Positions 15,156 to 57,087 of a stretch of 64,000 nucleotides of DNA are shown piece after piece (positions within the stretch are counted from its first letter, which is position 1; the number at the start of each line of letters is the position of its first letter). The translations under genes were made by a program, and so were the position numbers. This DNA is from Strigamia acuminata. Lineage: Eukaryota. Below the pieces are notes generated by a model. That model saw only the letters and a program-made list of their open reading frames with translations, made no database searches and was not told the DNA's origin. The stretch lies in assembly GCA_949358305.1 (NCBI GenBank), contig OX442314.1, positions 9,176,001 to 9,240,000 on the forward strand. The letters are read 5' to 3'.

Positions 15156-15552
15156 ATGCAAGAAATAGAAGACGACGAAGTTTTCGAGGCCGAATCGTCC
15201 AGTCATGGGCTCTTCAACCCGTTTCCACGACCATTTGCCCACCTGCACAGCGTCGACTCCGGTTACGAAGCAATGAGGGACTACTCGCCGTACGACTCCG
15301 CCGGCCGCTCCCGGAGTCGAAGCTTTGCCGAGCGGAGCCGAGAGGCGCTCGCCGCTCGCCCGCAACAACCGACATCGGCATCGCCCGTCGAAGTCGAGGG
15401 CCGTGCACTGAGTCGGCGTGCAACCTGGCCCGAGCTGCCGGTCGACCAATCCGATGCGGAGGCCGAGCGACACCGAATTCGAACCGAATCGATGCGCTCT
15501 GTCGGCACTCAAACATCGTCCCTCGAGGGACTGAGCCTGGACGATGATGCGG
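15156..15552 (+). CDS. BH3-only (Bmf/Bim/Bad-like) protein, coding exon 1
   Basis: Acceptor tttag| at 15154, ATG at 15156, phase-1 donor G|GTAAAT at 15552/15553. GC-rich coding composition. Encodes EDDEVF, DSGYE, RSRSRSF, RRATWP and RSVGTQT. Confidence 0.82.
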
Positions 15553-16780
15553 GTAAATCAATAAATTAATCATTTTTATCAACAACTTAACTTGAAATTT
15601 TGGTTTTTTTAAGTTAATTTAAAGTAAAATTTGTATTTTTAACGTTAATTTTTGCCTAAATCAACGATTTGAACGTATCAGGTTATTTTATAATTCCGAC
15701 AATAGATGGCGCTAATAGTGCAATGGCGGATAATCCTACAAGTGTTTAGCCGCGATTTAACCTCTTTGTTCTCTGAAATTAAATGTTTCTACATCAGTTT
15801 AATCTCGTCTACACATTTTAAAATAAAGACAAGATGTTTATTTATATAATCCTTGCAAACAATTTTTAATTATTTTAATTTTAAACCGAAATTTTACAAA
15901 AATTCATTCTCAATGGGAGAATAACATGGGGTATTTTTTAGCATGTCAAAAATTGTGATATTTTGGATGTTGTAGACATGAGGTGGGTAATGGGTCCATG
16001 AAACCCCCCACCACCTTTCCACCAGCTGAGTTTCCAGCTGTTTTATTGTGAGACAGGTTCTGGACTGACTGGTTAAGGGACCCCCCTCTTCCAACCCCCA
16101 TTTTATAGTCTTAAAATAATTTTCTGTTTCCATCTGAATTAGGTGCAATAGCAATTCTTTGGTTGCACTGTTTTTATTTGCATTTTAGGGTTAAAAGAGC
16201 GTAAACAAATGCAATTTTTTGTGGTGTAAGAGTTGGTTTGAGGCTAAGGTTTTGGTTGGTCTTTTTTCCAGGGGCCTGGAGCCCCCCCTGCCCTCTCTGG
16301 TGGCTTGCAACACTGGTTTTGCTTTGCAGCAGCAGCCACCTCAGTCTCAGCTTGCCTCAGCTGACTTGTTGGGGTCATCAGCTGATCTGGGGTTGGCCCT
16401 GGGGTGGAGGGGTGGGGGTGGAAGCCAATGGATCAGGCAAAGAATAAATTTGTGACCCCCAGGCTACTACTGTGTCCCTGAGTTGTGGAAACATGTTTAC
16501 AATTGTGTTTTTGTATTAGATTTGATATTGGTGGCGGCCATCTTGAAGGGTTTTTGGTTACTGTGTGATATTTTTTTGTTTTTAGATTTATTTTGGGTTT
16601 GGAGATTGATTAAATTTGGGGAAAGTTGATCTTTTTTGGTTTTTTGTTTGGATTTTAGTAGGATTTTTGGATTTTATGGGGGAAAAGACTTGGATTTAGG
16701 TGTTTTTTTAGTGGATGCTAATTCTAGTGTAGTTGTGAATATATTAGTATGATTTTTTTAATTGGGAAATGGTATTTATA

Positions 16781-17205
16781 AACTGAACTGGAATATGGGT
16801 TCGTTTTTAAAAATCTTCATTTTTGTTTAAATATTTTACGAAAATATTAGGGAAAGATGGTTTCTAGTGTAGATTTTAACGTAGATCATGAATATCGTAT
16901 CGAAATTCGTGGGGAAAACGTTAAAATTGCTGAAAAATGAACAAAATTGAGAAGCACGGGAAACCCACGGTAACCATTAGCGAATACTAATTCCAGCGTA
17001 ATTGTGAATAGATTACTATGGTTTTACCCACACACAACTGAACTGGAAACCGGGATAATTTATAAAAATCTCTATTTTTCCTTAAATATTTCAAGAAAAT
17101 ACCCGAAAAAGACTCTTTCTAGTGGAGATTTTAACGTAGATCACGAATATCGTATCGAAATTCGGCGGAAAAACGTCCAAATCGCCGAAAAATGACCAAA
17201 ACCGA
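16781..17205. repeat. Direct duplication with ~255-bp period
   Basis: aactgaactgga...gattttaacgtagatca(t/c)gaatatcgtatcgaaattcg occurs starting at ~16781 and ~17036. Confidence 0.75.
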
Positions 17206-17899
17206 CACCTATTGGTTAATAAGTTCATAATTCTGCCACCGGGATTGATTTTTCTTTTATGGGACTTGTTCCAGTCGCTAAGAGATCAATCACGGTAGCC
17301 ATATTGAAAGTTTATCTATTTTTCTTTTTTCTTTTCGTTTTGTTTATACATAAAACTTGACGAACAAGTACGTTTTAAATAATTCATTTAATAGACGACA
17401 GCGCCACCGTGCGGATATAAAATTTCACTTTTATCTTTGTTTTTATAACCCACTAGTAATTTTGCATGTTTATGAAGCTAATTCCGTTTTTCCCCGCCGT
17501 AAAACCACGTATAAAGCGAAAACGGATGAATTTATTTTTGGATGTTATGTGTGTCGTATGGCGGGATGACCGGAGCGGGAGAAAAGTTGGGGCTAACAAT
17601 GTTTCAAAGAGAGACCAATGGTCAGATAAGTTGCGAGTCGAGAGCGGCATTTCTGCCACTTGGATGGGTTTGAATACCGCGACCCAAACATGCGTTAGGG
17701 CTATTAAAATGGGATTTATTGTTTGTATAAACAATAAATTGTGGAGTTTGGATTTTTTGGGGAATGGAGAAGAGTTTTTTATTTTTTTTATTATTATTTT
17801 TTTTTAATTTGAGGGATTTTTTGGGTTGATTTTTGTTTTAGGGATTTGGGGGATGATGTTTGGGTGATTTTTTTGGGGATTTTATGGTGGTTTTGGAGG

Positions 17900-18530
17900 G
17901 ATTTTAGACATTATTGGAGCTTTTTATTAAATTTGAAGGAATTTTAGACTTTTTTTGGTATTTTTATGAAAGTTTGGAGGAATTTTAGACTTTTTTTGGT
18001 ATTTTTATGAAAGTTTGGAGGAATTTTAGACTTTTTTTGGTATTTTTATAAAAGTTTGGAGAAATTTTAGACTCTTTTTGGTATTTTTTATGAAAGTTTG
18101 GAGGAATTTTAGACATTTTATGAAAGTTTGGAGGAATTTTAGACATTTTATGAAAGTTTGGAGGAATTTTAGACATTTTATGAAAGTTTGGAGGAATTTT
18201 AGACATCTTATGAAAATTTGGACAGATTTTAGAAATTTTATGAAAGTTTTGAGGAATTTTAGACATTTTAGACATTTTATGAAAATTTGGACATATTTTA
18301 AACATTTTATGAAAGTTTGGAGGAATTTTAGACATTTTATGAAAGTTTGGAGGAACTTTAGACATCTTATGAAAATTTGGACAGATTTTAGAAATTTTAT
18401 GAAAGTTTTGAGGAATTTTAGACATTTTAGACATTTTATGAAAATTTGGACATATTTTAAACATTTTATGAAAGTTTGGAGGAATTTTAGACATTTTATG
18501 AAAGTTTCGACAATTTAAAACAATTTTAGT
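17900..18530. repeat. 30-41-bp minisatellite (ttttatgaaagtttggaggaattttagaca)
   Basis: Tandem copies; the source of the repetitive 186-aa and 146-aa ORFs. Confidence 0.95.
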
Positions 18531-19269
18531 CATTCTTACGAACATATTTTAGACAATTTTCGGCAAATCTTTAAAAAAAATAATAACAATTCTTCAACCC
18601 CTTTGATCACTCCAAACGATAGAAAAAAGCGAATAATAACAATAATAATAAAAAAAAAGAAGTAAAAAGTGTGAGCGGAAAAGTTTGTACCTTCTTCCCC
18701 TCGTCGACTTCCGTACGTTGGCGAAATTCGACGTAAATCGAGTCGTCGCGCGGCAAACATCGCAATGGAGCCAAAAGGGTAACGAAGCGCAGCCCCACGT
18801 GCTAAAAACGACTCCGACAAGAAGTTGAGTGTAAAACTACGGAAGCCGAGAAGCCATAAAAAAGCGCCGTGGTATGATAATTATTACGCGCGTTCATTTT
18901 CCCGCATGCGGACGCCATTAAAGTATGTTTTTCATTTTTTAAAGACGACGGGGAGATGAGATTCAATTGTAGATGAATCTAATGAATACAAAGTGATTTT
19001 GAGTGCGCTGCGCTGCACTGCACTTGGTTGGGCTGCGCTGCATTGCTCGGCGCGTTTTTGATGGTTGTTTAAGTCGCTGTTGGTTCATTGGAGTGAAAAA
19101 GTTGGTGTGAGAAATTTGTTTGTGTTTTGCATAATGTTGTGTGGGTTGTAGTTAGGGTTGTTTCTCGGTGTTGGGTTTTTTTTGGATGTTGTCCAGATTG
19201 GTTTTTTTTTTGGTTTTGTTTTGTTTTGGATGGTTTGGTTGGAGGTTGAGTTGGGGAGTGATTGGATTT

Positions 19270-20270
19270 ATTGGGAAATTGATGGAAATTGAAGGAAATT
19301 GGAGGAATTTGATGGAATTTGAAGGAATTGAGGGAAATTGAAGGAATTTGATGGAATTTGAAGGAATTTGAGGGAAATTAAAGAAATTTAAAGAAAGTTA
19401 AGGAACATTTTGGAAAAATTGAAGGAATTTGAGGAAAGTGTTTGGAAAATTTGAAAAAAAATTTGGAAAATTTGGAAAAAAAAATTGGAAAATTTGAAGA
19501 AAAAAAATTTGAAAATTTGAAAAAGAAAATTTGGAAAATTTGAAAAAAAATTTGAAAATTTGAAATTAAAAATTTGGAAAATTTGAAATTAAAAATTTTG
19601 AAAATTTGAAATTAAAAATTTGGAAAATTTGAAATTAAAAATTTGGAAAATTTGAAATTAAAAATTTGGAAAATTTGAAATTAAAAATTTGGAAAATTTG
19701 AAATTAAAAATTTGGAAAATTTGAAATTAAAAATTTGGAAAATTTGAAAAAAAATTAGAAAATTTGAAAAACATTTTGGATAATTTAAGAAAAATATGGA
19801 AAACTGAAGGAAAATGTGGAAAAGTGAAAAAAAATTAGTAGAAAAATTTGACAACTCAAGAACAATTTGATAAAATTATGAAAAATTTGATAAAATCAAG
19901 AAAATTTGATAAAATCAAGAAAAATTTGATAAAACCAAGAAAAATTTGATAAAATCAAGAAAAATTTGATAAAATCTAGAAAAATTAGATAAAATCAAGA
20001 AAATTTGATAAAATCAAGAAAAATTTGATAAAACCAAGAAAAATTTGATAAAATTAAGAAAAATTTGATAAAATCAAGAAAAATGTGATAAAATTAAGAA
20101 AAATTTGATAAAATCAAGAAAAATTTGATAAAATCAAGAAAAATTTGATAAAATTAAGAAAAATTTGATAAAATCAAGAAAAATTTGATAAAACCAAGAA
20201 AAATTTGATAAATTCAAGAAAAATTTGATAAACTCAGGAAAAATGCAAAAAACTCAAGAAAAATTATCAA
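19270..20270. repeat. Compound 10-22-bp minisatellites (gaaggaaatt / aaaatttgaaattaaaaatttgg / aagaaaaatttgataaaatc)
   Basis: Successive tandem arrays are directly visible. Confidence 0.92.
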
Positions 20271-20899
20271 AATTGAAAAAAAATCAAATTTTATTGAGAA
20301 ACCTCAAAGAACCATCAAAAAATCTAAATATTTTCATTTTAAAAAAAATTGAAATTTGAAGAAACGGAAAAACAATTGTAATTGAATGTGAATTTGCGTT
20401 TGCAAGTTGTTGCTGCAAGAAGTGAGGGCAAGAAACTGAAAGGATTATTATTTTTGACACTTGAGTACATTTTACTAGGCATTTTGGGCAGCCATGCAGA
20501 AAATGATGTTAAAAATATCGCTCTATCAATCTGTTTAAACAAACTAGGTCGTAAACATTTTTTCAATTACATTTAGTTACACGGGTAACTTGAGGAATTT
20601 CGTGTGTCACTGCAGAGTTTGCTCGGTGATTCATCGTGCTTGACTCACAAGACAACGAGCCAAAGCACCTAACCCTATTTTCACAGAATTTATCTGCGTT
20701 TTGAATCTTATATTCTGCAAGATGATTTCTGCAAATGGCCACGCGAACAGAAAAAAATTAATTTTTTACATTGAAGAAATATATTTTTGCACAAAATGTT
20801 TTATTTCTAATTTTTTTTTTTTTTTTTTTACAATATTTTTTATTTTTGCATAAAAAAATTTATTTTTTTTCAAAATATTTTATTTTTTACATAGAAGTT

Positions 20900-21450
20900 A
20901 ATTTTTTAACTTGAAAATCTCTAAAAAATTTAATTTTTATCTTAAAAAATCTCTAAAAAATTTAATTTTTATTTTAAAAAATCTCTAAAATCTTAAATTG
21001 TATTTTGAAAATTTACAAAAATCTCAAAATCTTAATTTTTGCCTTGAAAATTAACAAAAATCTCTAAAAATCTCAATTTTACCTTGAAAATCTCTAAAAA
21101 TCTCAATTTTTACCTTGAAAATCTCTAAAAATCTCAATTTTTACCTTGAAAATCTTTAAAAATCTCAATTTTTACCTTGAAAATCTCTAAAAATCTCAAT
21201 TTTACCTTGAAAATCTCTAAAAATTTCAATTTTTATCTTGAAAATCTCTAAAAATCTCAATTTTTACCTTGGAAATCTATAAAAATCTTAATTTGTGCCT
21301 TGAAAATTTACAAAAATCTCCAAAAATCTAAATTTTTAATTTGAAAATTTCTAAAAATCTCAATTTTTACCTTGAAAATCTCTAAAAATCTTAATTTGTG
21401 CCTTGAAAATTTACAAAAATCTCTAAAAATCTCAATTTTACCTTTAAAAA
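20900..21450. repeat. ~30-bp minisatellite (aaaatctctaaaaatctcaatttttaccttg)
   Basis: Tandem copies. Confidence 0.92.
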
Positions 21451-22529
21451 CCTCCAATTTCCCTTCAACTTACACACGACAAGCAGCTTAAAAAGCACTT
21501 TCCAGTGTTTAAAACACTCTTCAATCCAAACGACTTTAATAAACTCCACCTAGCAAGACACACACAACTCGATCACTAATTCCAATCATCATTTTTTCAT
21601 CAAAATCCAACCCGACGGCTGCAAATTTTCATTTCAGAACCAATTTATCTCCCATAAACCCAAGCAGAAAATAGAATACCAACGAAAAAATCGTCCCTCA
21701 CGTTCCACCCAGCTCATTTGTTACTCCCCGCATCCAGCCCGTGTGTCAACTCACTCCCGTTCCATGTACAGCGGATGTCCCACTCGTGTTCGCAGATGAA
21801 GACAAACGACGGAGTGATGGGCGCATAATACACTCTCCCCGCCATGATTAATGACGTCACAGAGGCATTTCTCAAATGAGAATTTGTCGGCCCGATTGGA
21901 TTCGCCCGCCATCGGACGTGGGTTGCCTAGCAACCGGATGCTGAGCACGAGAAGAAGAGGATATGCAGTCGCATCGTCGGGCTTAAATCAAAGGAAGAAG
22001 CGCAAATCCTTTCGCGGGCATGTGCGAGGCGATAAGAGGTTGCTTGAAATTGGCCGCTGCAAAGCCCGGGCTCGATGCTTCGCGCCGTTCGCCGCTTACC
22101 CCTTTAATCCTCTTCCGAGTCGATGACCACTGGGCAGTTGAATCGGAGCCACCTGTGTGCGCGCAGAATTTGATCCTTAAAGTGATAAATGCTTCCCATT
22201 TGTTCATCCTGTTCCACTCTAGTTCATCCTTGGACTTGACACAATTTGCCCGTGTTAATGTGATGAATCGGTGGAGAGGAGAGCGGGATTGAATGATTTG
22301 CAAATTCCATTTACAAGTTTAGAGTCCCTGGTCAAAAGAGGATTTGCTTCGGAACGGTGATTCAACTACGGGTGTAACTTTTGTTTAGTTTGTGCCCGAT
22401 ATCTTGATGGTAAATTCATACGGTGCATTCCATTTTGGGGGGCTGATTTCCTAATTGCACAATAATGCTAGAATAAAGTAAATAAACAGCAAAGAAATAC
22501 AGAAACAAAGTATTGCTCCGTAAGTCAAG

Positions 22530-23240
22530 CTGAAGGTGTATGGAGTAAAGCCGAAGGGGTACGGAGTAAAGCCGAAGGGGTATGGAGTTAAGCCGAAGGG
22601 GTACGGAGTTAAGCCGAAGGGGTACAGAGTAAAGCCAAAGGTATATTGAGAAAAGCCGAAGGGGTACGGAGTAAAGCCAAAGGTATACTGAGTAAAGCCG
22701 AAGGGGTACGGAGTAAAGCCAAAGGTATATTGAGTAAAGCCAAAGGTATATTGAGTATATTAGTAAAGCCAAAGGGAAATTGAGTAAAGCCGAAGGTCTA
22801 CAGAGTAAAGCCGAAGGGGTACGGAGTAAAGCCGAAGGAGTATGGAGTAAAGCCGAAGGAGTATGGAGTAAAGCCGAAGGAGTATGGAGTAAAGCCGAAA
22901 GGGTACAGCATAAAGCCGAAGGAGTAGGGAGGAAAGCCGAAAGGGTACGGAGTTAAGCCGAAGGGGTATGGCATAAAGCCAAAGGGGTACGGAGTAGAGC
23001 CGAAGGATATGGAGTAAAGCCGAGAGGGTACGGAGTTAAGCCGAAGGGGTACGGAGTAAAGCCGAAGGGGTACGGAGTTAAGCCGAAGGGGTACGGAGTA
23101 AAGCCGAAGGGGTACGGAGTAAAGCCGAAGGGGTACGGCGTAAAGCCGAAGGGGTACGGCGTAAAGCCGAAGCGGTACGGCATAAAGCCAAAGGTGTACG
23201 GAGTAAAGCCGAATTGGTACGGAATAAAGCCGAAGTCATA
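22530..23240. repeat. 21-bp GC-rich minisatellite (ggagtaaagccgaaggggtac)
   Basis: More than 30 tandem copies; produces the spurious (TPYPFGF)n ORFs. Confidence 0.96.
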
Positions 23241-24872
23241 TGGTATTCACACATTTGACTGGACGAAAAAGCAAAATTGTAATTGCTGACAAAAATGGCA
23301 GTTTTGAATAAGAGTCGCGGCTCTTAATCGATAATATACGGTATTTTAAATCGGAAGAATGTGATAAACGGTTGGGTTTCCCAGGAGATCACCCTTCCGA
23401 CTACTGATCGGCTTGGTGAGCCCGAGTCATTTTGTTTCTAATAAAACAATGAAAAGAGAGAACGATCAAGCCAGCGTGTAGTATGTTCATATGGGAATGT
23501 TCATCCAGATAAATGATTTCGTCAATCTATCTCAGTGTATCTCTCAACCAATCACGGTGTGTCATGAAAATAATACGTTTACGTCAGACATGACTGTAGC
23601 CAGGTAGGGGGCCTGCCTATGATCTTGGCTTAGGGGCCCGCTATGGAAGACTTGCCTGGTGTTGATGTCTGAACAATAACTGCATGATGTCTGATTTCTA
23701 AGCATTTTCTATGCGCCATCTGGTGTTAAATTAATTAATCATTTGTTATAATGGCGAAAAAAAGGGTCGAATTGAGGTTAAATGATATCAATGAAAGGAT
23801 GAGGGTACAGACGTCAATTTGTTAGGATTGCCCGGGATTCTAACTGCCAATTGGTCTCATTGCCTGGGATTAAATTGTTCAGCATGCAACGCATCATGGC
23901 CGGGGCGAGATAGGTTTCAATTTTGCCACCAGGTGCGTGTAGATAAAACACATTTAAAAAATTGGAAAGGAAAAAAAATACGATGATTGCTCATGTTTTG
24001 TAACATGCAGTTAATGATGGCATCAGGGGTCACGGAATCGTGTCATCGTGCATGGAAAAGACAAAATGGATGTGCAGAACAACACAGACAAATGAAGGCG
24101 TTGAGAAAAAAATTCACTTGTGTCTGTGGGTGTCTAATTTTGAATTATTAATCAAGATTCATCATCCGGGACACACTCACTCGATTAAACCGAGTGGATT
24201 TATCTTGATAATTTTTTTTTTTTTTTTTTTTTGGTAAAAACATGTCCCATTTGCTGTAATTTGCTAATAAGGTGCTCTAAGATTGTATCATTTGTCATTA
24301 TAATGTTGTTTTTTTGTGTGTGGGTGTCGGCCATTTTGGTAATGAAGTTTTGACGTGAGTGCGGAGTTAATATGAAACGTGAAGGGAAAGGATTCTTTAT
24401 TTTTTAAAATGAGTCAGTCATTAGGTTGGTAATGGCGGCGAGCGTAGTGTCGGGCTGCGGTGCGCATGCGCAATGGTTGTTATTAGACGTGAATGAGGAA
24501 GCTGGTGTTTGATGAACGAGAGTTTATCGTTGTTTTTTATTTAGAATTTAATATTAAATTAATTATGGTGAAATTTGATTATTTATTTTGTGTAAAATGT
24601 TAAAAGATGTTGTGGGTAATGATGACGATGCGGCGGTTGGGAAAATGGCCGCCATTGTTGTTCGTTTGCCGGTGCGGGAAATCTTTTCGCTTTTTCGACG
24701 GTTTGGACGATTGGATGTGGAAAATTGTGTAGACCTGAGGTTATATAAATGTAGAATCTCGAATTTTATTACATAAAAATGGAATTTAAAGTTCGAAAAT
24801 AAATTTCGCGAGCCGAAATTGAACAATTGTCAAATTTTTTCTTTTAATTTATTTAATTTTTATTGTTTCTAG

Positions 24873-25096
24873 ACGACGACGACGACGACGATAATGTGTT
24901 CAGCCCGTCTTCTACCGTGGGTTCCACGGGGCCTTTACCGGACGTGATCCAGCCTATGAACGAGCGAAGGCATTCGCTGGACGGCTCGGCCCTTCAAAAC
25001 CTCGGCCGCAATTTAAGGGACCTGGCGGACAGCTTCCGAGCTAGAAGCGAGGAGCAAAGGGCTTCTATTGGTCGCAGACGTACGTGGAGTCTACAG
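24873..25096 (+). CDS. BH3-only protein, coding exon 2 (contains the BH3 motif LGRNLRDLADSF)
   Basis: The acceptor ttgtttctag| matches the phase-1 donor of exon 1 (G+AC=Asp). Donor CAG|GTTAGA is phase 0. The BH3 motif is at 25001-25036; RRHSL and RRRTWSL kinase sites are also present. Confidence 0.85.
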
Positions 25097-26477: not shown

Positions 26478-26509
<32 letters not shown>

Positions 26510-27532: not shown

Positions 27533-27572
27533 TATGTAGAAGTTGTGACGCTTTTGGTATGAGCATTCAGTA

Positions 27573-33239: not shown

Positions 33240-34330
33240 TATTATTTTTTGTGTTTTAAGAGTGTTTTGGGTTGTTTTAAGAGTGTTTTTGGATGTTTAG
33301 AGGATTTTTGTGGTTGTTTTAAGAGTTTTGTTAGTTGTTTTAAGAGTTTTGTTGGCTGTTTTAAGAGTTTTTTGGTTGTTTTAAGTGTTTTAAGAGTGTT
33401 TCTGGTTGTTTTAAGGATTTTAAAGGTCATGGGAAGAGAAAAATAAAAATTGAGGAGAAGATTGTTTGTGTCATTATTAGACCAAATCCATTGTTGAAAC
33501 GTGTTCAATTGTTTCGAGAGTGTTATATCGTTTGTTTAAACGTTTGAAAATTCTCAAATGTCCTCCATTTTTAGTTTTCGAAAGTTTCCAAAAGTTGCCG
33601 TTGGTGGCGCTATTTATGACGTCATCGGCGACAAACAAGCAGCTTTTTAGCATGGGCTTGGCTTCATTTAAGAGCTACGAAATTTTTTTTCTAAATTTGA
33701 CAACACTGTTAGGTTATTGGGATTTTAATATTCAGTAAATATTCCAATTTGCTATTTGTTGCAAGTGTATAGGTTCAAAAGAACTAATACTAAATTTTCG
33801 TAGCTCTTAAATGAAGCCAAGCCCATGCTAAAAAGCTGCTTGTTTGTCGCCGATGACGTCATAAATAGCGCCACCAACGGCAACTTTTGGAAACTTTCGA
33901 AAACTAAAAATGGAGGACATTTGAGAATTTTCAAACGTTTAAACGAACGATATAACACTCTCGAAACAATTGAACACGTTTCAACAATGGATTTGGTCTA
34001 ATAATGACACAAACAATCTTCTCCTCAATTTTTATTTTTCTCTTCCCATGACCTTTAAGGTTACTTTTTGGTCGTTTTAAGGGTTTTAAGGTTACTTTTT
34101 GGTTGTTTTAAGGATTTTAGGATTAGTTTGTGGTTGTTTTAAGAGTGTTGTTGATTGTTTTAAGAGTGTTTGAAGAGTATTTTTGGTTGTTTTAAGAGTG
34201 TTTTTGGTTGTTTTAAGAGTGTTTTTGGTTGTTTTGAGTGTTTTAAGAGTGTTTCTGGTTGTTTTAAGGGTTTTAGGATTAGTTTGTGGTTGTTTTATGT
34301 GTTTTAAGAGTGTTGTTTTAACTGTCATAG
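33240..34330. repeat. ~21-bp minisatellite (ggttgttttaagagtgttttt) interrupted by a foldback element
   Basis: The same array lies on both sides of 33424-34054. Confidence 0.85.
33424..34054. mobile_element. Foldback MITE with ~260-bp TIRs and TTAA TSD (Kolobok-like)
   Basis: Arms 33420-33682 and 33796-34058 (including TTAA) are reverse complements with one mismatch that I could see; 113-bp spacer; TTAA|AGG...CCT|TTAA termini. Confidence 0.85.
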
Positions 34331-35154: not shown

Positions 35155-35960
35155 TTAATTAAAACGGAACGGAAAGTTAAAACGAAACGGAAAAATGATT
35201 AAAATGGAACGGAAAAATAATTAAAATGGAACAGAAAATTGATTAAAACGGAACGGAAAATTAATTAAAATGGAACGGAAAAATAATTAAAGTGGAACAG
35301 AAAATTGATTAAAACGGAACGGAAAATTAATTAAAACGGACGGAACATTAAAACGAAACGGAAAATTAATTAAATTGGAGAAGCAAATTAATTAAAACTG
35401 AACGGAAAATTAAAAAAAACGGAAATTTAATTTCAACGGAACGGAAAATTAAAACGAAACGGAAAAATAATTAAAATGGAACGGAAAATAAATTAAAATG
35501 GAACAGAAAATTGATTAAAACGAAACGGAAAATTAATTAAATTGGAGAGGAAAATTAATTAAAACGGAACGGAAAATTAAAAAAACGGAAAATTAATTTA
35601 AACGCAACGGAAAGTAAAACAAAACGGAAAATTAAAAAAAAAAACGGAAAATTAATTTAAACGGAACGGAAAAATAAAACGAAACGGAAAGTAAAACAAA
35701 ACGGAAAATTAAAATAAAACGGAAAATTAAAATTAGACGGAAAATTAAAATTTAACGGAAAATTAAAATAAAACGGAAAATTAAAATAAAACGGAAAATT
35801 AAAACGAACGGAAAATTAAAACGAACGGAACAGAAAGATTAAAACGAAACGGAAAATTAAAACGAAATGGAGAATTAAAACGAAATTCAAACGGAATTTA
35901 AAACAAAATCAACTTAAAACGAAATCAACTTAAAAACAAATTTAAAACGAAACAAACTCA
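35155..35960. repeat. ~16-21-bp minisatellite (aattaaaacggaacggaaa)
   Basis: Tandem degenerate copies. Confidence 0.92.
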
Positions 35961-37179: not shown

Positions 37180-37740
37180 GTAAAAATTGTACATTTTCAT
37201 GTAAAAAATGTACATTTTCATGTAAAAAATGTACATTTCCATGCAAAAAATGTATATTTCCATGCAAAAATAATAAATTTCCATGCAAAAATAATAAATT
37301 TCCATGCAAAAATAATAAATTTCCATGCAAAATAATAAATTTTAATGCCAAATGATAAATTTCCATGCAAATTAATCAATTTCCATGCAAAAATGATAAA
37401 TTTATTTGCAAAACTAATACGTTTCAATGTAAAAATATAAATTTCCATGTAAAATGGTCAATTCCCATGCAAAAATAATGAATCTTCCATGCAAAATAAT
37501 AAATTTTCTTGCAAAATAATAAATTTTTATGCAAAATAATAAATTTCCATGCAAAAATGATAAATTTATTTGCAAAACTAATACGTTTCAATGTAAAAAT
37601 ATAAATTTTCATGCAAAATAATAAATTTCCATGTAAAATGATAAATTCTCATGCACAAATGATAAATTCCCATGCAAAAATTAAAATTCCCCATGCAAAA
37701 TTCATAATTCTCCATGCAAAACTCACAATCTTCCACGCAA
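37180..37740. repeat. ~21-bp minisatellite (ttccatgcaaaaataataaat)
   Basis: Tandem copies. Confidence 0.92.
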
Positions 37741-38639
37741 TGATGATTTGCAATTCCCAACCAAAACACTCAACTCCCAACGAATCCACAAACCCGTAAA
37801 AACACAACCTCGTTACAACGAACCCCAAAAACAAAAAACTCCCAAACAAACCACCCAACAAAAATCCCTAATAAACCCCAAACCCACCCCTCCATCTCCA
37901 CTTTCCACCCCCTCCCCTCGTCCCCAGGTGACCATCGCCTTCTACCAGAACGGGCAAACAGTTTAAACCACCAGGGGGCGTTCCACCACCCAAAACCCCT
38001 CACCCCCAAACCCCCTCCAACTCTCACCACCTGCAAACCAGACAAACCAGACCCAAGGTTAAAACAACACCGAATTTTAATTTCCCCCTCCTCCTTGCCC
38101 CCCTTGCCCCCCCCCCCCCCCACTCCGTCCCTCGAAAAAAAAATTCATTTGTTTTGATTCAATTTCGTGGCAACGACCTTATTATTATTAACAACCTTCT
38201 CCTTCCCCTTTTGCCGTCTCGTGGACCCAGGTGGCGCTTGCCCAGGGGCCTCGAGCTGACCCCTTCCATCTCTCGGACAATCGCTGCATTGTTTTTGCAG
38301 GTGGATCACGTGCTGTGACGTCAGCAACGTGCAAGAGGGGAGTAAGTGAACTTGTATTTCTTATTTTTATTTATTTTGTTTATTTTGTTTTTTTTTCTTC
38401 TACTGGAACGCTTGCAACGCTTGCAACGCTCCACTACTACTCGTAAACAGCTGACTGCGTTCAAGGTCGTGACAAGTATAAATCAGGGGCGTCTGGGTCG
38501 GCGAGGTGCGCGCGCGCGCCACCGGGGCCACGAGTTTGTTGGCAGAGTGCCAGTTTTGAGGAGGATCCCGTTGGTTGGAGAAGTTTTGCAACTTGTAATT
38601 GGGTGGTGGTTGGTGTTGCCATGGCGACGGAGTGGCGAA

Positions 38640-38683
<44 letters not shown>

Positions 38684-40916
38684 TTTTGTTGTTTTGGTTC
38701 CATGACAACTTATTGGTTTGATGGGTTTTTGGAAGGTGAAAATGAGTTTGGTTGCTTGGGTTGTTGTTGTTGTTGTTGTTGCTATGGTTTTTTGGGGGTT
38801 TTTGGGAATAAAAGTTTGGGTTTGGTTTGGTTTGTTTGGGTTTTGGATTTATGGGGAATTAATCAGGTGTTGTGAGATTAGGATTTGTTTGTGTTTGTGC
38901 TTGGTCATGTTGTAGTTGTGTTTCCCACAACTTTGAACCTAAAACTCTTAAACTGATCGATTTAACTGTGAAATTTGTTTTTTTTTTGTGTGAAAGTGGA
39001 GCATGACTTGTGGGTTTTGGTCGGACCTCGTTATAACGAATTGGTGAAAGTCTAGAAAAAGTTATTTTGTTGTAATGAGGTTTTGGTGCAAGTTTGAAAT
39101 TTAGCATCTGGGACCAAGAGATTGGGAAGGATTTTGGACTAAAAAGGGTGTTTGTTATAACGAGGTTTTGTGCTGATGAAGGAGCATTTGGGGTCTGGTC
39201 AGTATACTTGGATGGACGACCTGCTGGGAATCTCAGCTGTTATTCATCCTTGTCTGGTTAAGGTACTGTGTCTAGGGCAAGAAAAGAACATCTGCCACTC
39301 CCGTCTCCAACTTGGTTTTTGATGGTTTTCGGTGCAAATGCAAGATTGAGTCTTTAAGAAAGTGAAGATATTCAAGAAGTTGATCCAGAACCAGAAACAG
39401 TTTGACATAGAAATGGGTCAAGCTTTGATTGATGAAGTCTGTGCCACCCTTTAGGTGGACCCAGACACAATCACTACTGCTGATGTTTTGCATGAAGCAG
39501 TCATGATTAAGACCCCGGATTTTTATGCAAAATAAAATTCGTTTTATGCGCATAAAATATGCACCAAAAATTCCATTTTATGCAAAATAAAAATAAAAAT
39601 ATGCAAAACAAAAAATTTATTCGAGCGAAATCAGGTGTTAAATAACAACTTGATGCCATTTCAAAGTGTTCTTGATGTAAATGAATACAATTAGTGTCCA
39701 ACCCCTCTATAACGAATCACTAAAATATTTTTCAAAAAAATTCTTTGCTCTAACTTTTTTTTAGCTGTGGGATCCAGCCGTTGAGGAACAGAAGTTGGCA
39801 GTTGGTTTTCGGTTTAAGCGAGTTCGCTATAACGAGGTTGGACCGTAAAATGACTATGAAAAAGTCTGTAAAGTTCTGTTTGCATCTATACGGTCAACAA
39901 CACTTGTGAGAAATAAAATTTCCTTGTTAGGGAAAGTTGCCAGGAAGGTGATGAAGGGCTTCCCCTCCTTGACACCTGTCGGGGAAATAGGCAGATGTGG
40001 AAAACTAACCTATTGTAGCTGTTGTGGAGCAGCGACTGCTGAATAGAGGGAAATCCATTACTATAAGCTTGTATATCTATTCCCAGATCTAGTTTTCAGG
40101 GTGGAAACAAAGTGGTGGCCATAAAAATGAGTCATGACAGATTTAAAGTGAAGAAATGCATTGTTTAAACTGTTTATTTCTATGTCCAACCATTGGCAAA
40201 CCCAAGTGCTGCACTGTGGTTACAAATGACTAGTTATTGCTGCTGAGCAAACAAGCAGTTTATAACCGGTTATGGAGCTATGAGTGGGCCTTTACTTATG
40301 AGTGAAGCATTCAACCACGTGCTGTGAGTCTGTAATAAGTTGATGGGAGTGGGGGGGGGGGGTTGGGGGAGGGGATTTGGAGTTAAGTCTTCAGGTGTGC
40401 TGCTATTTCTGTTGGATTTAGGTTTGGTTTGCTGGCCTAATAATTCATTTAGAGGGGGTAAACTGCTCTTGGTGTGTGTCAAGCTGGACAGGTTTTGTTT
40501 TTAATGAATAGGGAGTCAGGCAGTCATTAGGCAGTTTTTATATGTGGACAGTTTGGATTGCTGGTTTGAGGGGTTTTGAAAATGTTGTGGAGGAATAGAG
40601 GAATATGTATTGTTATGCGGTTAAGCCACACCGAGCAATATTGAGAGTAAATAGGATTTGTTGGCACAGGTCTGGCTGTAACTGGTGTTTGAAAAAGCCA
40701 CGACGAATGGGGAATAAACGGACTTTTCGTTTCGAAGAAGTTCGCTAAATTTCAGGCAATTCCGAGGTATAGATTTTGAGAAATTTTAACATTGGGTATC
40801 GGTCTGTCCGTAGACTTCGTCGGAAGCAGTGTTGCATCAACTTAGGCCTGGTTGCATTTCTTTGGACTCCGGGTGCAATGCAGAACCGATGGTCCTATCG
40901 TGTGCATTGCCCAATA

Positions 40917-41022
40917 CGGTCTAACCTCGTTATAACGAAGTTGCTTGTAGGAGAAGCCCTACTTGCCGAAAGCAAAGTGTTCTTTCGATTTTTAGGGATT
41001 TCGTTATAACGGGGTCGGACTG
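40917..41022. mobile_element. Miniature pogo/Tigger-like (Tc1/mariner) MITE
   Basis: TA|cggtctaacctcgttataacgaa ... ttcgttataacggggtcggactg|TA. Confidence 0.7.
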
Positions 41023-41498
41023 TATATTTTTTGCAACCTTGAAGAGAAATCAAAATTGACTGTTTTGTTTTGGAAGCCATTGACCCAATCCCGAGCCAAA
41101 AGTTACGCGTCTAATAATTGCTGTCTCGAGTACAACTTACGCATCCATAATTTGCGAGTAGGCGCAAAGGCGTGGCTTCTTCTCCATCTTTGAAGGGAAA
41201 AGAAATCTGTTTGGGTTTTTTTTTTACCCCCAACAACCTGTCCGTTAACGAGAGGAGAGAGCACACACCTGCAGCCAGGATGAGTAAAAACTGAACTCAG
41301 CCTTGAACCTGATGACGTTGACAAGTTGGAGAGCGCATTAACCCTTTCAACCCAACCTGCGAGCAATCGAGTTAAGTGAAGGCGAAAAAAAATGAATGGG
41401 ACAAATCAAATATCCAAGGACATCCATCGGGGTGCTCTTAATCAATTTGCACTAGCTGCTTGTAGATCGGTGTCAGAGGTTGGATTTTCCACGTCGTG

Positions 41499-41926
41499 CA
41501 GTCAAACCTCGTTATAACGAACTCGTTTAAAGCGTAAATATCCATCCTGGTGCTGGAATTGGACAGTTTTAGCGGAAACCTCGTTATAGCGAACTGGCTT
41601 AAAGCAGAAACATCAACTGTATTGCTAGAATTAGCTAGATATAGCAAAAACCTCGTTATAACGAACTCGTTTAAAGCGTAAATATCCATCCTGGTGCTGG
41701 AATTGGACAATTTTAGCGGAAACCTCGTTATAGCGAACTTGCTTAAAGCATAAATATCCATCCTGGTGCTGCAATTGGATAGTTTTAGTGGAAACCTCGT
41801 TATAGCAAACTTGCTTAAAGCAGAAACATCAACTGTATTGCTAGAATTAGCCAGTTATAGCGAAAACCTCGTTATAAGGAACTGTTATTTTGATTTTTGG
41901 TGATTTGTTATAACGAGGTTTGACAG
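41499..41926. mobile_element. pogo/Tigger-like MITE derivative with a tandemly amplified 72-bp TIR-containing unit
   Basis: Begins cagtcaaacctcgttataacg and ends gttataacgaggtttgacag. Six aaacctcgttata copies are spaced 72 bp apart. Confidence 0.7.
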
Positions 41927-44264
41927 GAAAGTGAGGTTGCATTTTTTTGGAAGGGGGGAGGGGTGGGGAGAGGGTGATTGTTGTAATGTGAGTTTGGGAT
42001 CCTGCGTACCATATTTGGTTTTATTAAAAATATAATAAATTTTTTTTGGTGTTTTATTTCAAAGGACTTTTTTTTTGCTTATCATTTCAGTTTCTGGTTA
42101 CAATTTATTTCGTTTGGTGTCGTGTTGAGCTTGGACATATGAAACGTGTGTTGGAATGTTATAGAAATAGAAATTTTTAGAAAAAATAATAATTGAAAAA
42201 ATTGTTTTTATGACGATTTGGAAATGTATTGGTTTTCTCCGGAGATCTGTCTCACTCTTTGCAGAGTGTGATTAGCCTCGCCCGGCCTGGGCACAAACAA
42301 ATCTCCGTACAAAAAAATTTACGGAGATCGACCTTAACCTTGGCCGACTCGAGTCGACTTTCCTCCGCCTAACAACCAGCGATTTACCGTCGATTCACTA
42401 ACACGTAGTTTTCAATTGAAAATTGAAACTTCTAATGATTTCATCTCCTCGTGTCAACATCGAGTGAACTAATCAGCTTAAATTTAATCCCCATGGAAGA
42501 TTGAATTAATTATTAAATGAAATTATTTTTTATTTTAAATCCAAAATGGCGGCTGGCAAGGCCTAATTAATCATTCATCATGAAATATAAATAATTTTTT
42601 TTTTTTTTTTTTTTTTTTGCAAAAAAAAAATTGTTGAGCAACTTATTTTAACTTGGATCACGTGACTAGAAAAAAAAGATGGAGAAATGAGTTTTTCGAG
42701 ATAAGAAGCGTCATGACTAATGAAACCGAAACTATTTTTAGTGCGAAAATCACACGGACCACTTAAACTCACACACTGCCCCTATTTTCCTCGCTGCCAT
42801 GAGGAATTTCTTTTTTTCCCGCCCCCGCGTTCGCCTCGCGTTCGTCTCGCCCCGTTGATGACCCTCGCGTGTGGTCAGTAATTTAACTCATTCTCGCCAG
42901 ATGCCGGCGCTCTGAAACTGAAACTCGACACGAGTCAACACGTGCACGCCGAGTTTGTGTTTATTTCTGGAGTTTGATGGGAAAAAAATTGTTTTGCCTT
43001 CGGGGCGATTGTCCTGGCCGCCATCTTTAAAAAAATTGGAAAAAATAATTTTTTTGGATTTTTTTTTTGATTTAATCTAAAAAAAAAATTTTGGACGGGA
43101 AATGCTCATCCGCCTGACGGGAACAGGCGCGCCTGTTCCCGTCTGAAACCTCCCAGATTCCCGTCGAAAAAAGTTAATGTTAATCTATGGAAAATAGGCT
43201 TAGTTTGTGATTACTGTGGTTTTATAGCTCGGCGGTCCTTTTGTCTTTGAAGATTTGATTATTTCTTTAATTTTTTTTTATCTCCGGGGGTGTAGGGGGG
43301 TCCTTGAACGCAGATTGGTGGCGTTTTATCACTTTGCATGGAGTTTTGGTGCCTAAAACGAATTTTAATCATCGAATCCATTAAATCCACATTGGAAATT
43401 GTTAAAACTTTTACGATATTTTCCTCCTTTATTGTTGCTGCAATAATTTATGCAAATGAGTAAGTGGAATGAAAAGGCAGATAATGAGATTAGGCCTATA
43501 TATTTTTGACGAATTTGCATAATGGCACTTGAAATTGAATTGTTGCATCTGACAAACACAACATTGAGGCTTAGAAAACGAGTCGCCATTTTTTTTTTTT
43601 AAATTTATTTCTAAGTAATAAAATTTTTGGAGGAAAAAAAAACGCGCGTCCGACGTCGAGACGCGCGCCAACAGGTCCGCAGACTTAAAGTTTCACGTTT
43701 CGACGCCAGATGGAGGATAAGAGAGCGAGGTAATTGATGGAGGGGACGGAACCTCGTTATAGCGAATTTTGGCTGGGGCTTGGGCCGGGTTTGTGGTTCG
43801 TTGTAGCGGGGTCGGTGTACCTGGTCGAGGGGTGTCGACAGTGTGGGGAGACTTGAGAAACCTCGGATTAAGGAACAATGATGGAGGTGAATGGGTTTAA
43901 TGGTTTGTTATAATGAGGGTGTCTACCTTGATTTGGCGCGGGTTGAAAAAAAGGGACGAGACACGTCGAGGGAAGTTGTCTGGGGGTGGGTGAGGGGGGT
44001 GGTGGTGTCGTTTTGTTTTGGTTGGGGAGAAAATGAGGGGGGGGGATGAGGTTTATTAAATTTGGGAAAGGGAAATGGGGTTTAACCTCGTTATAGCGAA
44101 TTTTTTTATAGTGGAGAAATTGAGTGTGATTATTATGTAAAGAAATGTTTGGGGAAAAGTTTATAAGGAAAAAAATGTGTTTTGCAAAATGTTTTTTTAG
44201 GGGAAAACTGTTTTAAGGGTGTTTTTGCAGGGAAAAAGTGTTTTATACCAAATTTTATTTGGGA

Positions 44265-44600
44265 AAAACTGTTTTGCACACAAATTTAGTGGTAAAACCC
44301 CGTTTTGCACAAAAATTTAGTGAAAAAACCCCGTTTTGCACAAAAATTTAGTGAAAAAACCCCGTTTTGCACAACAATTTAGTGGTAAAACCCCGTTTTG
44401 CACAAAAATTTAGTGAAAAAACCCCGTTTTGCACAAAAATTTAGTGAAAAAACCCCGTTTTGCACAACAATTTAGTGGTAAAACCCCGTTTTGCACAAAA
44501 ATTTAGTGAAAAAACCCCGTTTTGCACCAAAATTTAGTGAAAAAACCCCGTTTTGCAAAACAATTTAGTGGGAAAATCCCATTTTGCACAAAAATTTTGT
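44265..44600. repeat. ~31-32-bp minisatellite (ccccgttttgcacaaaaatttagtgaaaaaa)
   Basis: Tandem copies. Confidence 0.93.
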
Positions 44601-45704
44601 TGGAAAAAAACAGTTTTGCGCAATATTTGCAGGGAAAAATTGCCTTATTGAATATTTTTGCAGGAAAAAACCGTTTTGCTCAAATTTCAGCAGGAAAAAC
44701 CGTTTTATACAAAAATGTAGTGCAAAAAAAAATCGTTTTACAGTTGGAAAAACCGTTTTACGCAAAACCAACTATACCAACAAAAAAAAAATGGCCGAGG
44801 ACCCACTTCCCCCAAAATTGTACTAGTCCAAAAAATAACTTAATCACATTTGCATTTCTAATTCAAAGCAAACGTTTACACGCTTCACGATAAACGTCAT
44901 CCATTTGAAAAGATGCAGGCGCCATTTTTCAAACCCTCACGTCAAAATGGCTGACGGTTAATGGGTGGCGATGGCGGGCCTACAAATCAACAAGAGGCGC
45001 ACTTAACCCTCTCCTAGTTGATTTACAACTCCGTCTAAATTTGGAACGCGTTAAAAATGATGAGACGAAGTGTGGGGGGGCAAAAAAAACACAACATCCC
45101 CCCCCACCCCCACCCACCCCCTTATCATCATCTCGTGTTGTTTTAAAAGTTATTTAGTTTCATTTGGAGCGAAACACGAGCAAATTTGATTATGATCCGT
45201 GATCAATCATGGCGTCGACATGTTGATCCCGAACGCGGGCGTTTTGATCGCAGATTAGTCGCGTTCCGCAAGCACGAGCGAGCGTTTTGCTGCTGTCGCC
45301 ATGACAGCGCAGTTTGGTTTTTGTGGTCGATTCAAATTATACAAAGAAAAAAGAAGGGAAGTTTAATTAAAAGGCGAGTCGAGACTGTGTTCATCCATCA
45401 TTGGCACTTCCGGTTCGGCCTTAAAACTCATTTTTCTCGTCGCCGTCACTCGCGACCCAATTATTGCTCTTTTAACTCGACACTTGGCAAACACTTGACA
45501 ATTTGTTTACATTGGACGAGGCGGGGAAAAAATTGCTTTGCAAATTAGGCCTAATAAGTTTGTTTAATGCTATTAGAGGACCGCTAGACCATCCATTTTG
45601 CTGGCTTTCACTCTGTTCTTTTAAAGGTCTGGCCCCAGAGGGCCCCAGGTGTTGTGGGGCCACCTAGGCCACCTTGGACTCAAGAAAATTTCAACATTTA
45701 AAAC

Positions 45705-46255
45705 AGGGGGCCCCAAAAACCCAACAGTGTTTTGGGGGCCCTAGATCCACAAAAGTGTTTTGGGCCCCGAGATACACAACTGTGTTTTGGGGCCCAAAAA
45801 ACCCAACAGTGTTTTGGGGGCCCCAGATCCGCAACAGTGTTTTGGGGTCCCAGATCCACAACAGTGTTTTGGGCTCCTAGATACCCAACAGTGTTTGGGG
45901 CCCCAAAAATCCAATAGTGTTGTGGGGGCCCCAGATCCACAACAGTGTTTTGGGCCCCTAGATACCCAACAGGGCCCCAAAAATTTAATAGTGTTTTGGA
46001 GCCCCAAAAACCCAACAGTGTTTTGGGGCCCAAAAAATCCAACAGTATTTTTTGGGGGCCCAGATCCACAATAGTGTTTTGGACCCCCAGATACACAACA
46101 GTGTTTTGGGCCCCTGGATACACAAATATTTTGGGCCCCCAGATATACAACAGTGTTTTGGGGCCCCAAAAATCCAATAGTGTTTTGGGGTCTGAAAAAT
46201 TCTACAGTGTTTTAGGCCCCCAGACACACAACATTGTCTTTGGGCCCCCAAAGCT
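45705..46255. repeat. ~30-bp minisatellite (caacagtgttttgggccccagatcca)
   Basis: Tandem copies; explains the six overlapping ORFs here. Confidence 0.93.
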
Positions 46256-46902
46256 GAGGGGTTTGGGACCCTTAACATTTTTTGGGGTTTCTGTCTCAAA
46301 ATGAGTGGGGAAAATGAGAAAAAATTCAAGAATAAACTGGGGCCCTCTTTAGTTGTGGGTTTTGGGGCCTCTTATTGTCTCAAAATGAAGAGGTTTAGAA
46401 AAATTTGCTTTTGGGGCTTTAGTTTTTTGCGGATATCTGGAAAAGTGGCAAACTTGGAGTGGAAGTCTGTGGCTAGACAGAAAGACCTGTGCAAGATGGT
46501 TCTTGGGGACCCCCCACTTGCCCCCTGCAGACCCGGGGTCCGCGAGAATTTGCGTGTTAAAGTTTTGTCTTTTGTCGTAAGTTTATTGTATTGTGTGCTC
46601 CCATCTGAGTTTGCATATGTACGTGGGGTTTTACTTAATTCCGGGACAAGTCAAGTGAAAAATAGCTTTTTGCTGGGATTAGGCTTAAGTAAGCTCGTAA
46701 AAAGTTTGAGGACGCGTTCCTCGACGATTTTTATGGGCGTTCATAAAGGAATGACAAGATGAAATACATCACCAGTGTCACTATACAATGTCATTAAATT
46801 CTGGAATTTTTTTTTTTTTTTTTTTTTTGGGAAATTAAATTTTTTTTTTTTAAAAAAAACAAAATGGTGGATATAATATTTTTTTTTGTTTATTTTTCTT
46901 AG

Positions 46903-47007
46903 GAGTCGTTCCGTTTGAGCAGCCATATTGAAATTCGGGCTCGCCGTTGGAGCCTTCTCGATTGGACTTCATCCGAACATTCTTCCTCTTCAGCCAATCA
47001 GCAATGA
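46903..47007 (+). CDS. Probable terminal coding exon of the BH3-only gene (ESFRLSSHIEIRARRWSLLDWTSSEHSSSSANQQ*)
   Basis: Strong acceptor tttgtttatttttcttag|. The phase-0 frame is the only one of three open for more than 10 codons from this acceptor and matches the exon-2 donor. It repeats the RxRxWSL motif of exon 2. A long AU-rich region with AATAAA signals follows (e.g. ~48242, ~49784). Confidence 0.55.
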   Translation, partial: ESFRLSSHIEIRARRWSLLDWTSSEHSSSSANQQ

Positions 47008-56983: not shown

Positions 56984-57087
56984 AATCCCCCTCATAGGTT
57001 ATCATTTGTTTAAACTTAAAAAGAAAACTAACTCTAACAACAAACATGAATGAAAGAGAAAAACGAATAAAATATTAACAACAAAAA

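What the first reader, a model, noticed from the sequence alone, without database searches (positions are those of the whole stretch)
15156..47007. Invertebrate BH3-only protein combining Bmf, Bim and Bad regulatory modules in one chain
Seen: three phase-compatible exons encode a ~241-aa acidic, low-complexity protein with a complete 12-residue BH3 pattern L-G-x-x-L-x-x-L-A-D-x-F (25001-25036) and no BH1/BH2. It also has an LC8-type TQT motif (RSVGTQT, 15495-15515), an N-terminal EIEDDEVF, DSGYE (15255) and several basophilic sites (RSRSRSF, RRATWP, RIRTES, RRHSL, RRRTWSL, RARRWSL). Established: Bim and Bmf bind dynein light chain via KxTQT; Bmf starts with EELEDDVF and has an A-D-x-F BH3; BimEL has an SSGYFS beta-TrCP degron; Bad is sequestered by 14-3-3 after Akt/RSK/PKA phosphorylation. 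Inference: this is a pro-apoptotic sensor that integrates controls split among vertebrate paralogues. Its short motifs mean it would probably be annotated as uncharacterised.
Basis: partly seen in the sequence, partly recalled or inferred. Interest (0 to 1): 0.9.

Follow-up and report, generated by a model that had tools for sequence, protein, structure and literature searches.

The report
Invertebrate Bmf-like cell-death trigger gene
Three exons spread over 32 kb join in frame into a predicted 241-residue disordered protein whose docking motifs come in the same order as in the human cell-death trigger Bmf, so it is likely an invertebrate apoptosis sensor kept off by growth-signal kinases, though no transcript, relative or binding was shown.

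Summary
Exons 15156-15552, 24873-25096 and 46903-47007 splice in phase to a 241-codon frame, with every motif at the stated place. Support: splice-site scores within the range of a neighbouring 11-exon kinase gene, a shared head-to-head CpG-rich promoter region and a likely non-coding first exon. [quoted passage not shown] New here: the N-terminal D-E-V-F matches the RSK-docking motif that human BMF carries at residues 12-15 and that was shown to bind RSK2. Acidic-VF, TQT, BH3 in this order arose in 0 of 300,000 shuffles with strict patterns and 163 with loose ones. Weaker than claimed: DSGYE is not a canonical degron, the protein has no lysine, and basophilic sites are not Bad-specific. No homologue was found, no RNA or complex prediction was available, and the taxon is unknown. 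Verdict: likely a Bmf-type BH3-only protein; common descent with Bmf/Bim is plausible but untested.

The parts
14130..14450 (.). Likely bidirectional CpG-rich promoter region shared with a head-to-head kinase gene whose ATG is at 14128 on the minus strand
   Evidence: CpG observed/expected 1.6; kinase gene model; inferred, no transcript start data
14250..14716 (+). Predicted non-coding exon 0 (start approximate), with a short upstream ORF and an in-frame stop before the main ATG
   Evidence: Donor GAG|GTGAGT at 14717 ranks first of 3569 GT sites; frames
15156..15552 (+). Coding exon 1 (residues 1-132; the exon itself would begin at 15155)
   Evidence: GC 0.62 and CpG o/e 1.37 against AT-rich flanks
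15174..15185 (+). D-E-V-F (residues 7-10) in an acidic run: predicted RSK-docking 'DDVF/VF' motif, same end of the protein as in BMF
   Evidence: 232 of 300,000 shuffles have it in the first 20 residues; motif definition and BMF data
15255..15269 (+). DSGYE (residues 34-38): degron-like but non-canonical; function doubtful
   Evidence: no DSGxx[ST]; loose pattern P=0.12; no lysine in the protein
15306..15491 (+). Basophilic kinase sites RSRSRS (51-56), RRATWP (87-92), and RHRIRT/RIRTES (105-112) just before the TQT motif
15495..15515 (+). RSVGTQT (114-120): predicted LC8/dynein-light-chain binding motif
   Evidence: 5 of 8 positions equal the phage-selected consensus VSRGTQTE of PMC3078936; Val instead of Lys/Arg at -3
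24873..25096 (+). Coding exon 2 (second-to-last), with a second acidic-VF (D-N-V-F, 24890-24901), RRHSL, the BH3 and RRRTWS
25001..25039 (+). BH3 motif, residues 176-188 (Leu180, Asp185), predicted amphipathic helix
   Evidence: 7 of 9 defined positions of the 13-residue motif in PMC2871139; helix with pLDDT 88-95; peak hydrophobic moment 0.71; Atlas neighbours Bak/Bmf/PXT1/Bim
46903..47007 (+). Coding exon 3 with RARRWSL, a repeat of the RRRTWSL that ends exon 2; no transmembrane tail; stop codon
   Evidence: Acceptor ranks 5th of 1721 AG sites after exon 2; highest 19-residue hydropathy in the whole protein 0.34
47008..47220 (+). Start of the 3' UTR up to the first AATAAA (47214); true end unknown

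Best explanation
This is likely a single invertebrate gene for a disordered BH3-only protein of the Bmf/Bim type, predicted to trigger apoptosis by laying its BH3 helix in the groove of pro-survival Bcl-2 proteins and predicted to be held off by growth-signal kinases and dynein light chain. Shown in the sequence: the in-phase exons, the motifs and their order (acidic-VF, basophilic sites, TQT, BH3), no other BH motif, no membrane tail. Inferred from human BMF, BIM and BAD: RSK docks on D-E-V-F (a second copy lies at 139-142) and phosphorylates the RxRxx[ST] sites; 14-3-3 binds the phospho-sites, two groups of which flank the BH3 and would mask it; LC8 binds the TQT and would tether or dimerise the protein, with Thr110/Ser112 just upstream as a possible switch. 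Loss of ERK-RSK/Akt/PKA signalling or cytoskeletal stress would free the BH3. With no lysine, control is more likely by sequestration and transcription than by lysine ubiquitination.
For: Gene model. Control: 10 donors and 10 acceptors of the neighbouring kinase score 0.2-7.9 and -4.3-7.7; this gene's score 3.05-7.86 and 1.33-8.48. G-over-C skew on the sense strand in 27 of 31 one-kb bins between 16001 and 47000 against 5 of 14 upstream, in line with one long plus-strand unit. BH3; second-to-last exon, the rule for BH3-only genes except Bid (PMC7022251); Atlas feature search of exon 2 gave BH3-bearing clusters (Bak fragment 0.87, Bmf 0.82, PXT1 0.80, Bim 0.78), 9 of the 10 best family-bearing hits in one family or clan. 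Disorder: charge-hydropathy on the disordered side; exon 1 model pTM 0.20. RSK docking: BMF motif binds the RSK2 N-terminal kinase domain and BMF phosphorylation falls when that site is competed (PMC8789800); both VF dipeptides of the protein follow acidic runs. Ordered motif set: 0, 37 and 163 of 300,000 shuffles for strict, middle and loose patterns.
Against: No relative by sequence: 0 of 77 and 0 of 63 candidates, 0 at E<=0.001 among 1.84 billion representatives for exon 1, 0 of 595 and 0 of 597 metagenome stretches, no BH3 family in Pfam or PDB; these used single exons only. So conservation of Leu180/Asp185 is unknown. All Atlas scores are under 0.9, a lead only, and exon 1 drew nothing. 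The BH3 departs at two positions (Ser where an acid is usual, Arg where a hydrogen-bond acceptor is usual). BH3 motifs arise easily by convergence and need experimental proof (PMC10107002). Shuffle tests ignore that the locus was picked because it had these motifs. At 241 residues it is longer than human BH3-only proteins (54-198), though shorter than echinoderm candidates (350, 373). Whether this genome has Bcl-2-family partners is unknown (no genome held).
Confidence: 0.68

Rival explanations
1. A disordered RSK/14-3-3/LC8 adaptor of MAP-kinase signalling whose helix only resembles a BH3 and does not drive cell death.
For: The strongest statistical signals are the kinase sites and acidic-VF motifs; DDVF motifs occur in RAS-ERK adaptors such as SPRED2, GAB3 and CNKSR2 and in 222 human proteins; no BH3 family matched in Pfam or PDB.
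Against: [quoted passage not shown]
Confidence: 0.17
2. Exons 1 and 2 are not mainly on one transcript: the BH3 is made as a short product from an internal promoter in intron 1 (for example from Met162 in exon 2), and the regulatory half belongs to another or a minor isoform.
For: Promoter-like clusters in intron 1: CRE plus a palindromic X-box at 21852-21934, YY1-like and NRF1-like sites at 24432-24471; an in-frame ATG at residue 162 precedes the BH3; no RNA evidence for the 15552^24873 joint.
Against: Exon 1 ends in phase 1 and exon 2 is open only from phase 1 on the plus strand; the acidic run continues across the joint; both exons share composition and motif types; no other phase-keeping partner exon was found in intron 1. 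A short isoform could exist beside the long one, as with BimS.
Confidence: 0.1
3. A Hid-like IAP antagonist with a BH3-like helix, as earlier scan notes proposed for other arthropod loci, or a chance chain of GC-rich segments.
For: Three earlier notes describe three-exon Hid-like genes with BH3; the protein is an orphan.
Against: It starts M-Q-E-I, not with the Ala-led IAP-binding motif (consensus recalled), and lacks the Gly-Trp near the C-terminus described in PMC8620624; chance is unlikely given the splice phases, motif enrichment and promoter context.
Confidence: 0.05

Closest known systems
Vertebrate BMF (Bcl-2-modifying factor, Pfam PF15185)
   Same: N-terminal acidic VF motif (eleDDVFqpe at 12-15; here DEVF at 7-10), RxxS/T sites, dynein-light-chain TQT (EDKATQTL), then BH3, in this order (PMC8789800 Fig. 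7 legend); disordered; BH3 in second-to-last exon; Atlas neighbour at 0.82.
   Different: No detectable sequence homology (Pfam); longer; five RxRxx[ST] sites and a second acidic-VF; Val at -3 of the LC8 motif; no lysine.
Vertebrate BIM (BCL2L11)
   Same: TQT-type LC8 motif (DKSTQT) upstream of the BH3; RSK/Akt phosphorylation; very few lysines (two in rat BimEL).
   Different: No canonical beta-TrCP degron and no lysine to ubiquitinate; no hydrophobic C-terminal tail; only three Ser-Pro sites; no Bim_N or Bclx_interact match.
Vertebrate BAD
   Same: Several RxRxxS sites, the 14-3-3 type motif described for BAD Ser112/Ser136 (PMC6193418), near the BH3.
   Different: No PKA site inside the BH3 like Ser155; carries TQT and acidic-VF motifs (BAD is not among the DDVF hits shown); no Bcl-2_BAD match.
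Candidate BH3-only proteins of echinoderms, lophotrochozoans, amphioxus and cnidarians (PMC8998228, section 2.4 and Fig. 5)
   Same: Invertebrate, predicted disordered, BH3 on one exon, found with Bim/Bad/Bmf seeds, untested.
   Different: The text read does not describe VF, TQT or 14-3-3 motifs in them ('dynein' 0 occurrences); their sequences were not readable, so no direct comparison was made.
Drosophila Sayonara and C. elegans EGL-1
   Same: Invertebrate BH3-only proteins.
   Different: Sayonara is a coiled-coil protein with a convergent BH3; neither is described with the VF-TQT-BH3 layout in the sections read.

Membership tests
BH3-only proteins | 13-residue motif Phi1-s-x-x-Phi2(Leu)-x-x-Phi3-s-D-z-Phi4-B | tested here: met
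   Phi1-4, both small residues, Leu and Asp match; z (Ser, normally acidic) and B (Arg) depart: 7 of 9
BH3-only proteins | No other BH motif or Bcl-2 fold; intrinsically disordered | tested here: met
   No Pfam or PDB Bcl-2 match in any exon; charge-hydropathy and single-sequence models
BH3-only proteins | BH3 on one exon, the second-to-last | tested here: met
   On the predicted gene model; rule from PMC7022251
BH3-only proteins | Binds the groove of pro-survival Bcl-2 proteins | not testable with these tools
BH3-only proteins | BH3-dependent killing | not testable with these tools
   Needs cell assay
BH3-only proteins | Leu and Asp conserved in orthologues | tested here: inconclusive
   No orthologue found
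BMF/BIM orthology group | Sequence homology to PF15185, PF06773 or PF08945 | tested here: not met
   No match in Pfam scans of single exons and parts; Atlas feature scores 0.78-0.82 only
BMF/BIM orthology group | Ordered layout acidic-VF, RxxS/T, LC8 TQT, BH3 | tested here: met
BMF/BIM orthology group | Shared gene neighbourhood (BUB1/BUB1B, PAK, PLCB; neighbours recalled) | tested here: inconclusive
   The one neighbour in the window is a DYRK-like kinase; the downstream neighbour is outside the window
RSK-docking DDVF/VF motif | D/E-D/E-V-F in a disordered, acidic context | tested here: met
   Residues 7-10; second D-x-V-F at 139-142; binding untested
LC8/DYNLL ligands | TQT anchor with compatible -5 to +2 residues in a disordered region | tested here: met
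   5 of 8 positions equal the selected consensus, Arg tolerated at -5, Val at -3 departs; binding untested
beta-TrCP phosphodegron (BimEL type) | DSG-x-x-S core (consensus recalled) and lysine acceptors | tested here: not met
   No second Ser/Thr; zero lysines; BimEL uses Ser93/94/98 and two lysines
Hid-like RHG proteins | N-terminal IAP-binding motif; C-terminal Gly-Trp | tested here: not met

The most novel reading that the evidence does not exclude
The gene is a living invertebrate descendant of the single ancestral BH3-only gene from which vertebrate Bmf, Bim and Bad arose, and it shows that the RSK-docking motif, LC8 tether and 14-3-3 sites were wired to the BH3 before the vertebrate duplications. 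Growth-factor (ERK-RSK) control of mitochondrial apoptosis would then be a bilaterian-wide circuit hidden from homology searches, possibly also in arthropods, where no such protein is described in the papers read.
Probability: 0.4. Interest if true: 0.8.

Novelty: new variant of a known kind. Interest (0 to 1): 0.6.

Why it matters
Reviews treat most BH3-only proteins as unrelated and easily convergent, and invertebrate candidates are known only by their BH3. A protein that also carries BMF's RSK-docking motif at the same end and the LC8 motif in the same order gives a second and third character for testing common descent, and a concrete motif triple (acidic-VF, TQT, BH3) to mine invertebrate genomes that BLAST and Pfam miss. 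It predicts which kinase switches the protein off, which is testable with single point mutants.

Tried and rejected
No genome was held. The sequencing-run search gave no answer, so there is no RNA evidence. Complex prediction of the BH3 peptide with human Bcl-xL was not available: no verdict. Homologue searches with single exons were all empty; exon 2 was not searched in the 1.84-billion library nor among proteins under 131 residues, and exon 1 not above 287 residues in the word-indexed search. Pfam, PDB sequence (malic enzyme, a designed coiled coil, a reductoisomerase, taken as chance) and Foldseek gave nothing relevant. Atlas on exon 1 gave nothing. Taxon: the copia element's best relative is from a pseudoscorpion at 28% identity, too distant to assign a phylum. 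Alternative exons: no phase-keeping cassette in intron 1 and none at my thresholds in intron 2; four acceptors score above exon 3's (38684, 63255, 48874, 32841) but open low-complexity, empty or motif-less frames; candidates at 16272 and 31791 were rejected for phase or composition. No hydrophobic tail-encoding last exon stood out. No full p53 site was found; FOXO sites (9 against 4.75 expected) are not convincing. Rfam and tRNA scans were empty. Pfam scan of 204 of 458 six-frame ORFs of 50+ residues outside the copia (the rest dropped for low complexity or low GC) found only the kinase exon as a credible hit. The alignment files of PMC8998228 could not be read; they may hold the invertebrate BH3-only sequences that bear on novelty.
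Full report
Observation. All listed motifs are present. The start codon directly follows an acceptor-like AG, and the top-scoring donor of 3569 GT sites in the window is at 14717, so the gene probably has a non-coding first exon; an in-frame stop there makes Met 15156 the first start. Splicing is predicted only: no genome was held and the sequencing-run search gave no answer.

Is the gene model sound? A Pfam scan of 204 of 458 six-frame ORFs found a kinase exon on the minus strand. It belongs to a gene of at least 11 in-phase exons from an ATG at 14128 down to 97, 387 codons without a stop, closest in PDB to DYRK1A (E 8e-11 for one exon). It lies head-to-head with the candidate across a CpG-rich region (o/e 1.6). 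With the same simple scoring, its 10 donors score 0.2-7.9 and its 10 acceptors -4.3 to 7.7; the candidate's three donors (7.86, 3.44, 3.05) and acceptors (1.33, 5.72, 8.48) are inside or above those ranges. Exon 3's acceptor ranks 5th of 1721 AG sites after exon 2; 4 of the 1721 open a frame with a basophilic-plus-hydrophobic site, two of them this exon, which repeats the R-R-x-W-S-L type motif that ends exon 2. Sense-strand G skew is positive in 27 of 31 one-kb bins across the introns against 5 of 14 upstream. CpG depletion is confined to patches such as the kinase exons (o/e 0.38) while the candidate's exons and the copia are not depleted (1.1-1.4); this mosaic pattern fits an invertebrate animal (inference from general knowledge). 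The phylum is unknown; the copia's best relative is a pseudoscorpion protein at only 28% identity.

The BH3. Against the 13-residue motif in PMC2871139 (passages) it meets the four hydrophobic positions, both small residues and the Asp, and departs at z and B. The 12-position core appears in 0.4% of 20,000 shuffles and three times in six frames of the window; the minimal core appears 45 times, so the minimal core alone means little. A single-sequence model of exon 2 gives one helix (37-70), pLDDT 88-95 over the BH3, low elsewhere; the hydrophobic moment peaks there. The ESM Atlas put exon 2 next to Bak-fragment (0.87), Bmf (0.82), PXT1 (0.80) and Bim (0.78) clusters, all under its 0.9 lead threshold; exon 1 drew nothing. 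[quoted passage not shown] There is no membrane tail. Binding could not be modelled.

The regulatory motifs. The main new result is that the N-terminal D-E-V-F fits the D/E-D/E-V-F motif that docks on RSK kinases (PMC11984722, passages). Human BMF is listed with eleDDVFqpe at 12-15 in that paper's S1 Table, and PMC8789800 (passages and section 12 part 1) reports that the BMF motif binds the RSK2 N-terminal domain but not MSK1, that RSK2 phosphorylation of BMF drops when the site is competed, and suggests the target site may affect dynein-light-chain binding. Here both VF dipeptides follow acidic runs, and two overlapping RxRxx[ST] sites (Thr110, Ser112) lie just before the TQT. The TQT region equals the phage-selected LC8 consensus at 5 of 8 positions (PMC3078936, passages). 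Five RxRxx[ST] sites against 0.67 expected (P=0.0003) and four RRx[ST]-hydrophobic sites (0 of 20,000) are real enrichment. The ordered set acidic-VF, TQT, BH3 arose in 0, 37 and 163 of 300,000 shuffles from strict to loose patterns; these figures do not correct for the locus having been picked for its motifs. The 14-3-3-type sites are not Bad-specific: BimEL has one (PMC2871139) and BAD's are RxRxxS (PMC6193418, passages).

Mechanism. Most likely (0.68) a Bmf-type BH3-only sensor: RSK docks at the N-terminus and, with Akt or PKA, phosphorylates basophilic sites; 14-3-3 and LC8 hold the protein away from pro-survival Bcl-2 proteins; loss of survival signalling frees the BH3. The motifs and their order are shown; every interaction is inferred. 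Rivals are a non-apoptotic RSK/LC8 adaptor (0.17), a short BH3 product from an internal promoter with the regulatory half on another transcript (0.10), and a Hid-like gene or chance (0.05; PMC8620624 abstract and section 2.3).

Relatives. None was found: all with single exons or parts, which lowers sensitivity. So orthology to BMF is not shown and the protein is not filed as a BMF member; it is laid out like one.

Novelty. Candidate BH3-only proteins found with Bim, Bad and Bmf seeds are already reported for echinoderms, amphioxus, hemichordates and lophotrochozoans, untested, and none for insects apart from the later Sayonara (PMC8998228 sections 2.4, figure legends and passages; PMC10107002 sections on discovery and discussion). 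My ten literature searches showed no paper describing an invertebrate protein with the VF-TQT-BH3 layout or a shared origin of Bim, Bmf and Bad; most hits were seen only as listings, the library lacks most subscription papers, and the alignment files of PMC8998228 were unreadable. I recall that human BAD, BMF, BCL2L11 and BBC3 lie in paralogous chromosome regions, which would make a single invertebrate pro-orthologue the expected state; this is recalled and untested, and the one neighbour seen here does not support microsynteny. They lower uniqueness but hint at a widespread hidden family. Verdict: new variant of a known kind, interest 0.6.

Noticed in passing
window 97-14128, minus strand: Intact multi-exon gene for an atypical DYRK/HIPK/PRP4-like kinase (11 exons in the window, 387 codons, runs off the left end), head-to-head with the BH3 gene; unusual glycine loop GKGQSS and activation segment ending YELQTLIYRAPE; exons CpG-depleted. 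A good marker for finding the species and the syntenic BH3 gene in relatives.
   Followed up: partly
window 56823-61433, minus strand: Very young, intact Ty1/copia retrotransposon: single gag-pol ORF 57088-61152, identical LTRs of about 161 bp, TTTTT target-site duplication; best relative only 28% identical.
   Followed up: partly
window 21852-21934 and 24432-24471: Promoter-like clusters inside intron 1: palindromic CRE plus a perfect RFX X-box, and YY1-like plus NRF1-like sites about 400 bp before exon 2; could drive a short BH3 isoform from Met162 that lacks the VF and TQT motifs.
   Followed up: partly
window 21852, 33012, 33617, 33854, 35060, 38316: Six palindromic CRE sites (0.65 expected), all inside the gene's introns; two are the arms of one inverted repeat at about 33560-33900 that looks like a MITE.
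   Followed up: partly
window 38301-38341: Possible 41-nt cassette exon (TTTTTGCAG ... GTAAGT) in intron 2 that would add five residues and a stop after exon 2, giving a shorter C-terminus; it overlaps a CRE.
   Followed up: no
window 47223-47608: Five YY1-like ATGGCG motifs clustered in the presumed 3' UTR; 15 in the window against about 1.6 expected.
   Followed up: no
window 15156-47007 (predicted protein): No lysine and no cysteine in 241 residues, against 29 arginines; the neighbouring kinase has 17 lysines in 387. May reflect avoidance of ubiquitination.
   Followed up: partly
window 14625-14651: Eight-codon upstream ORF in the predicted non-coding exon, a possible translational control.
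   Followed up: no
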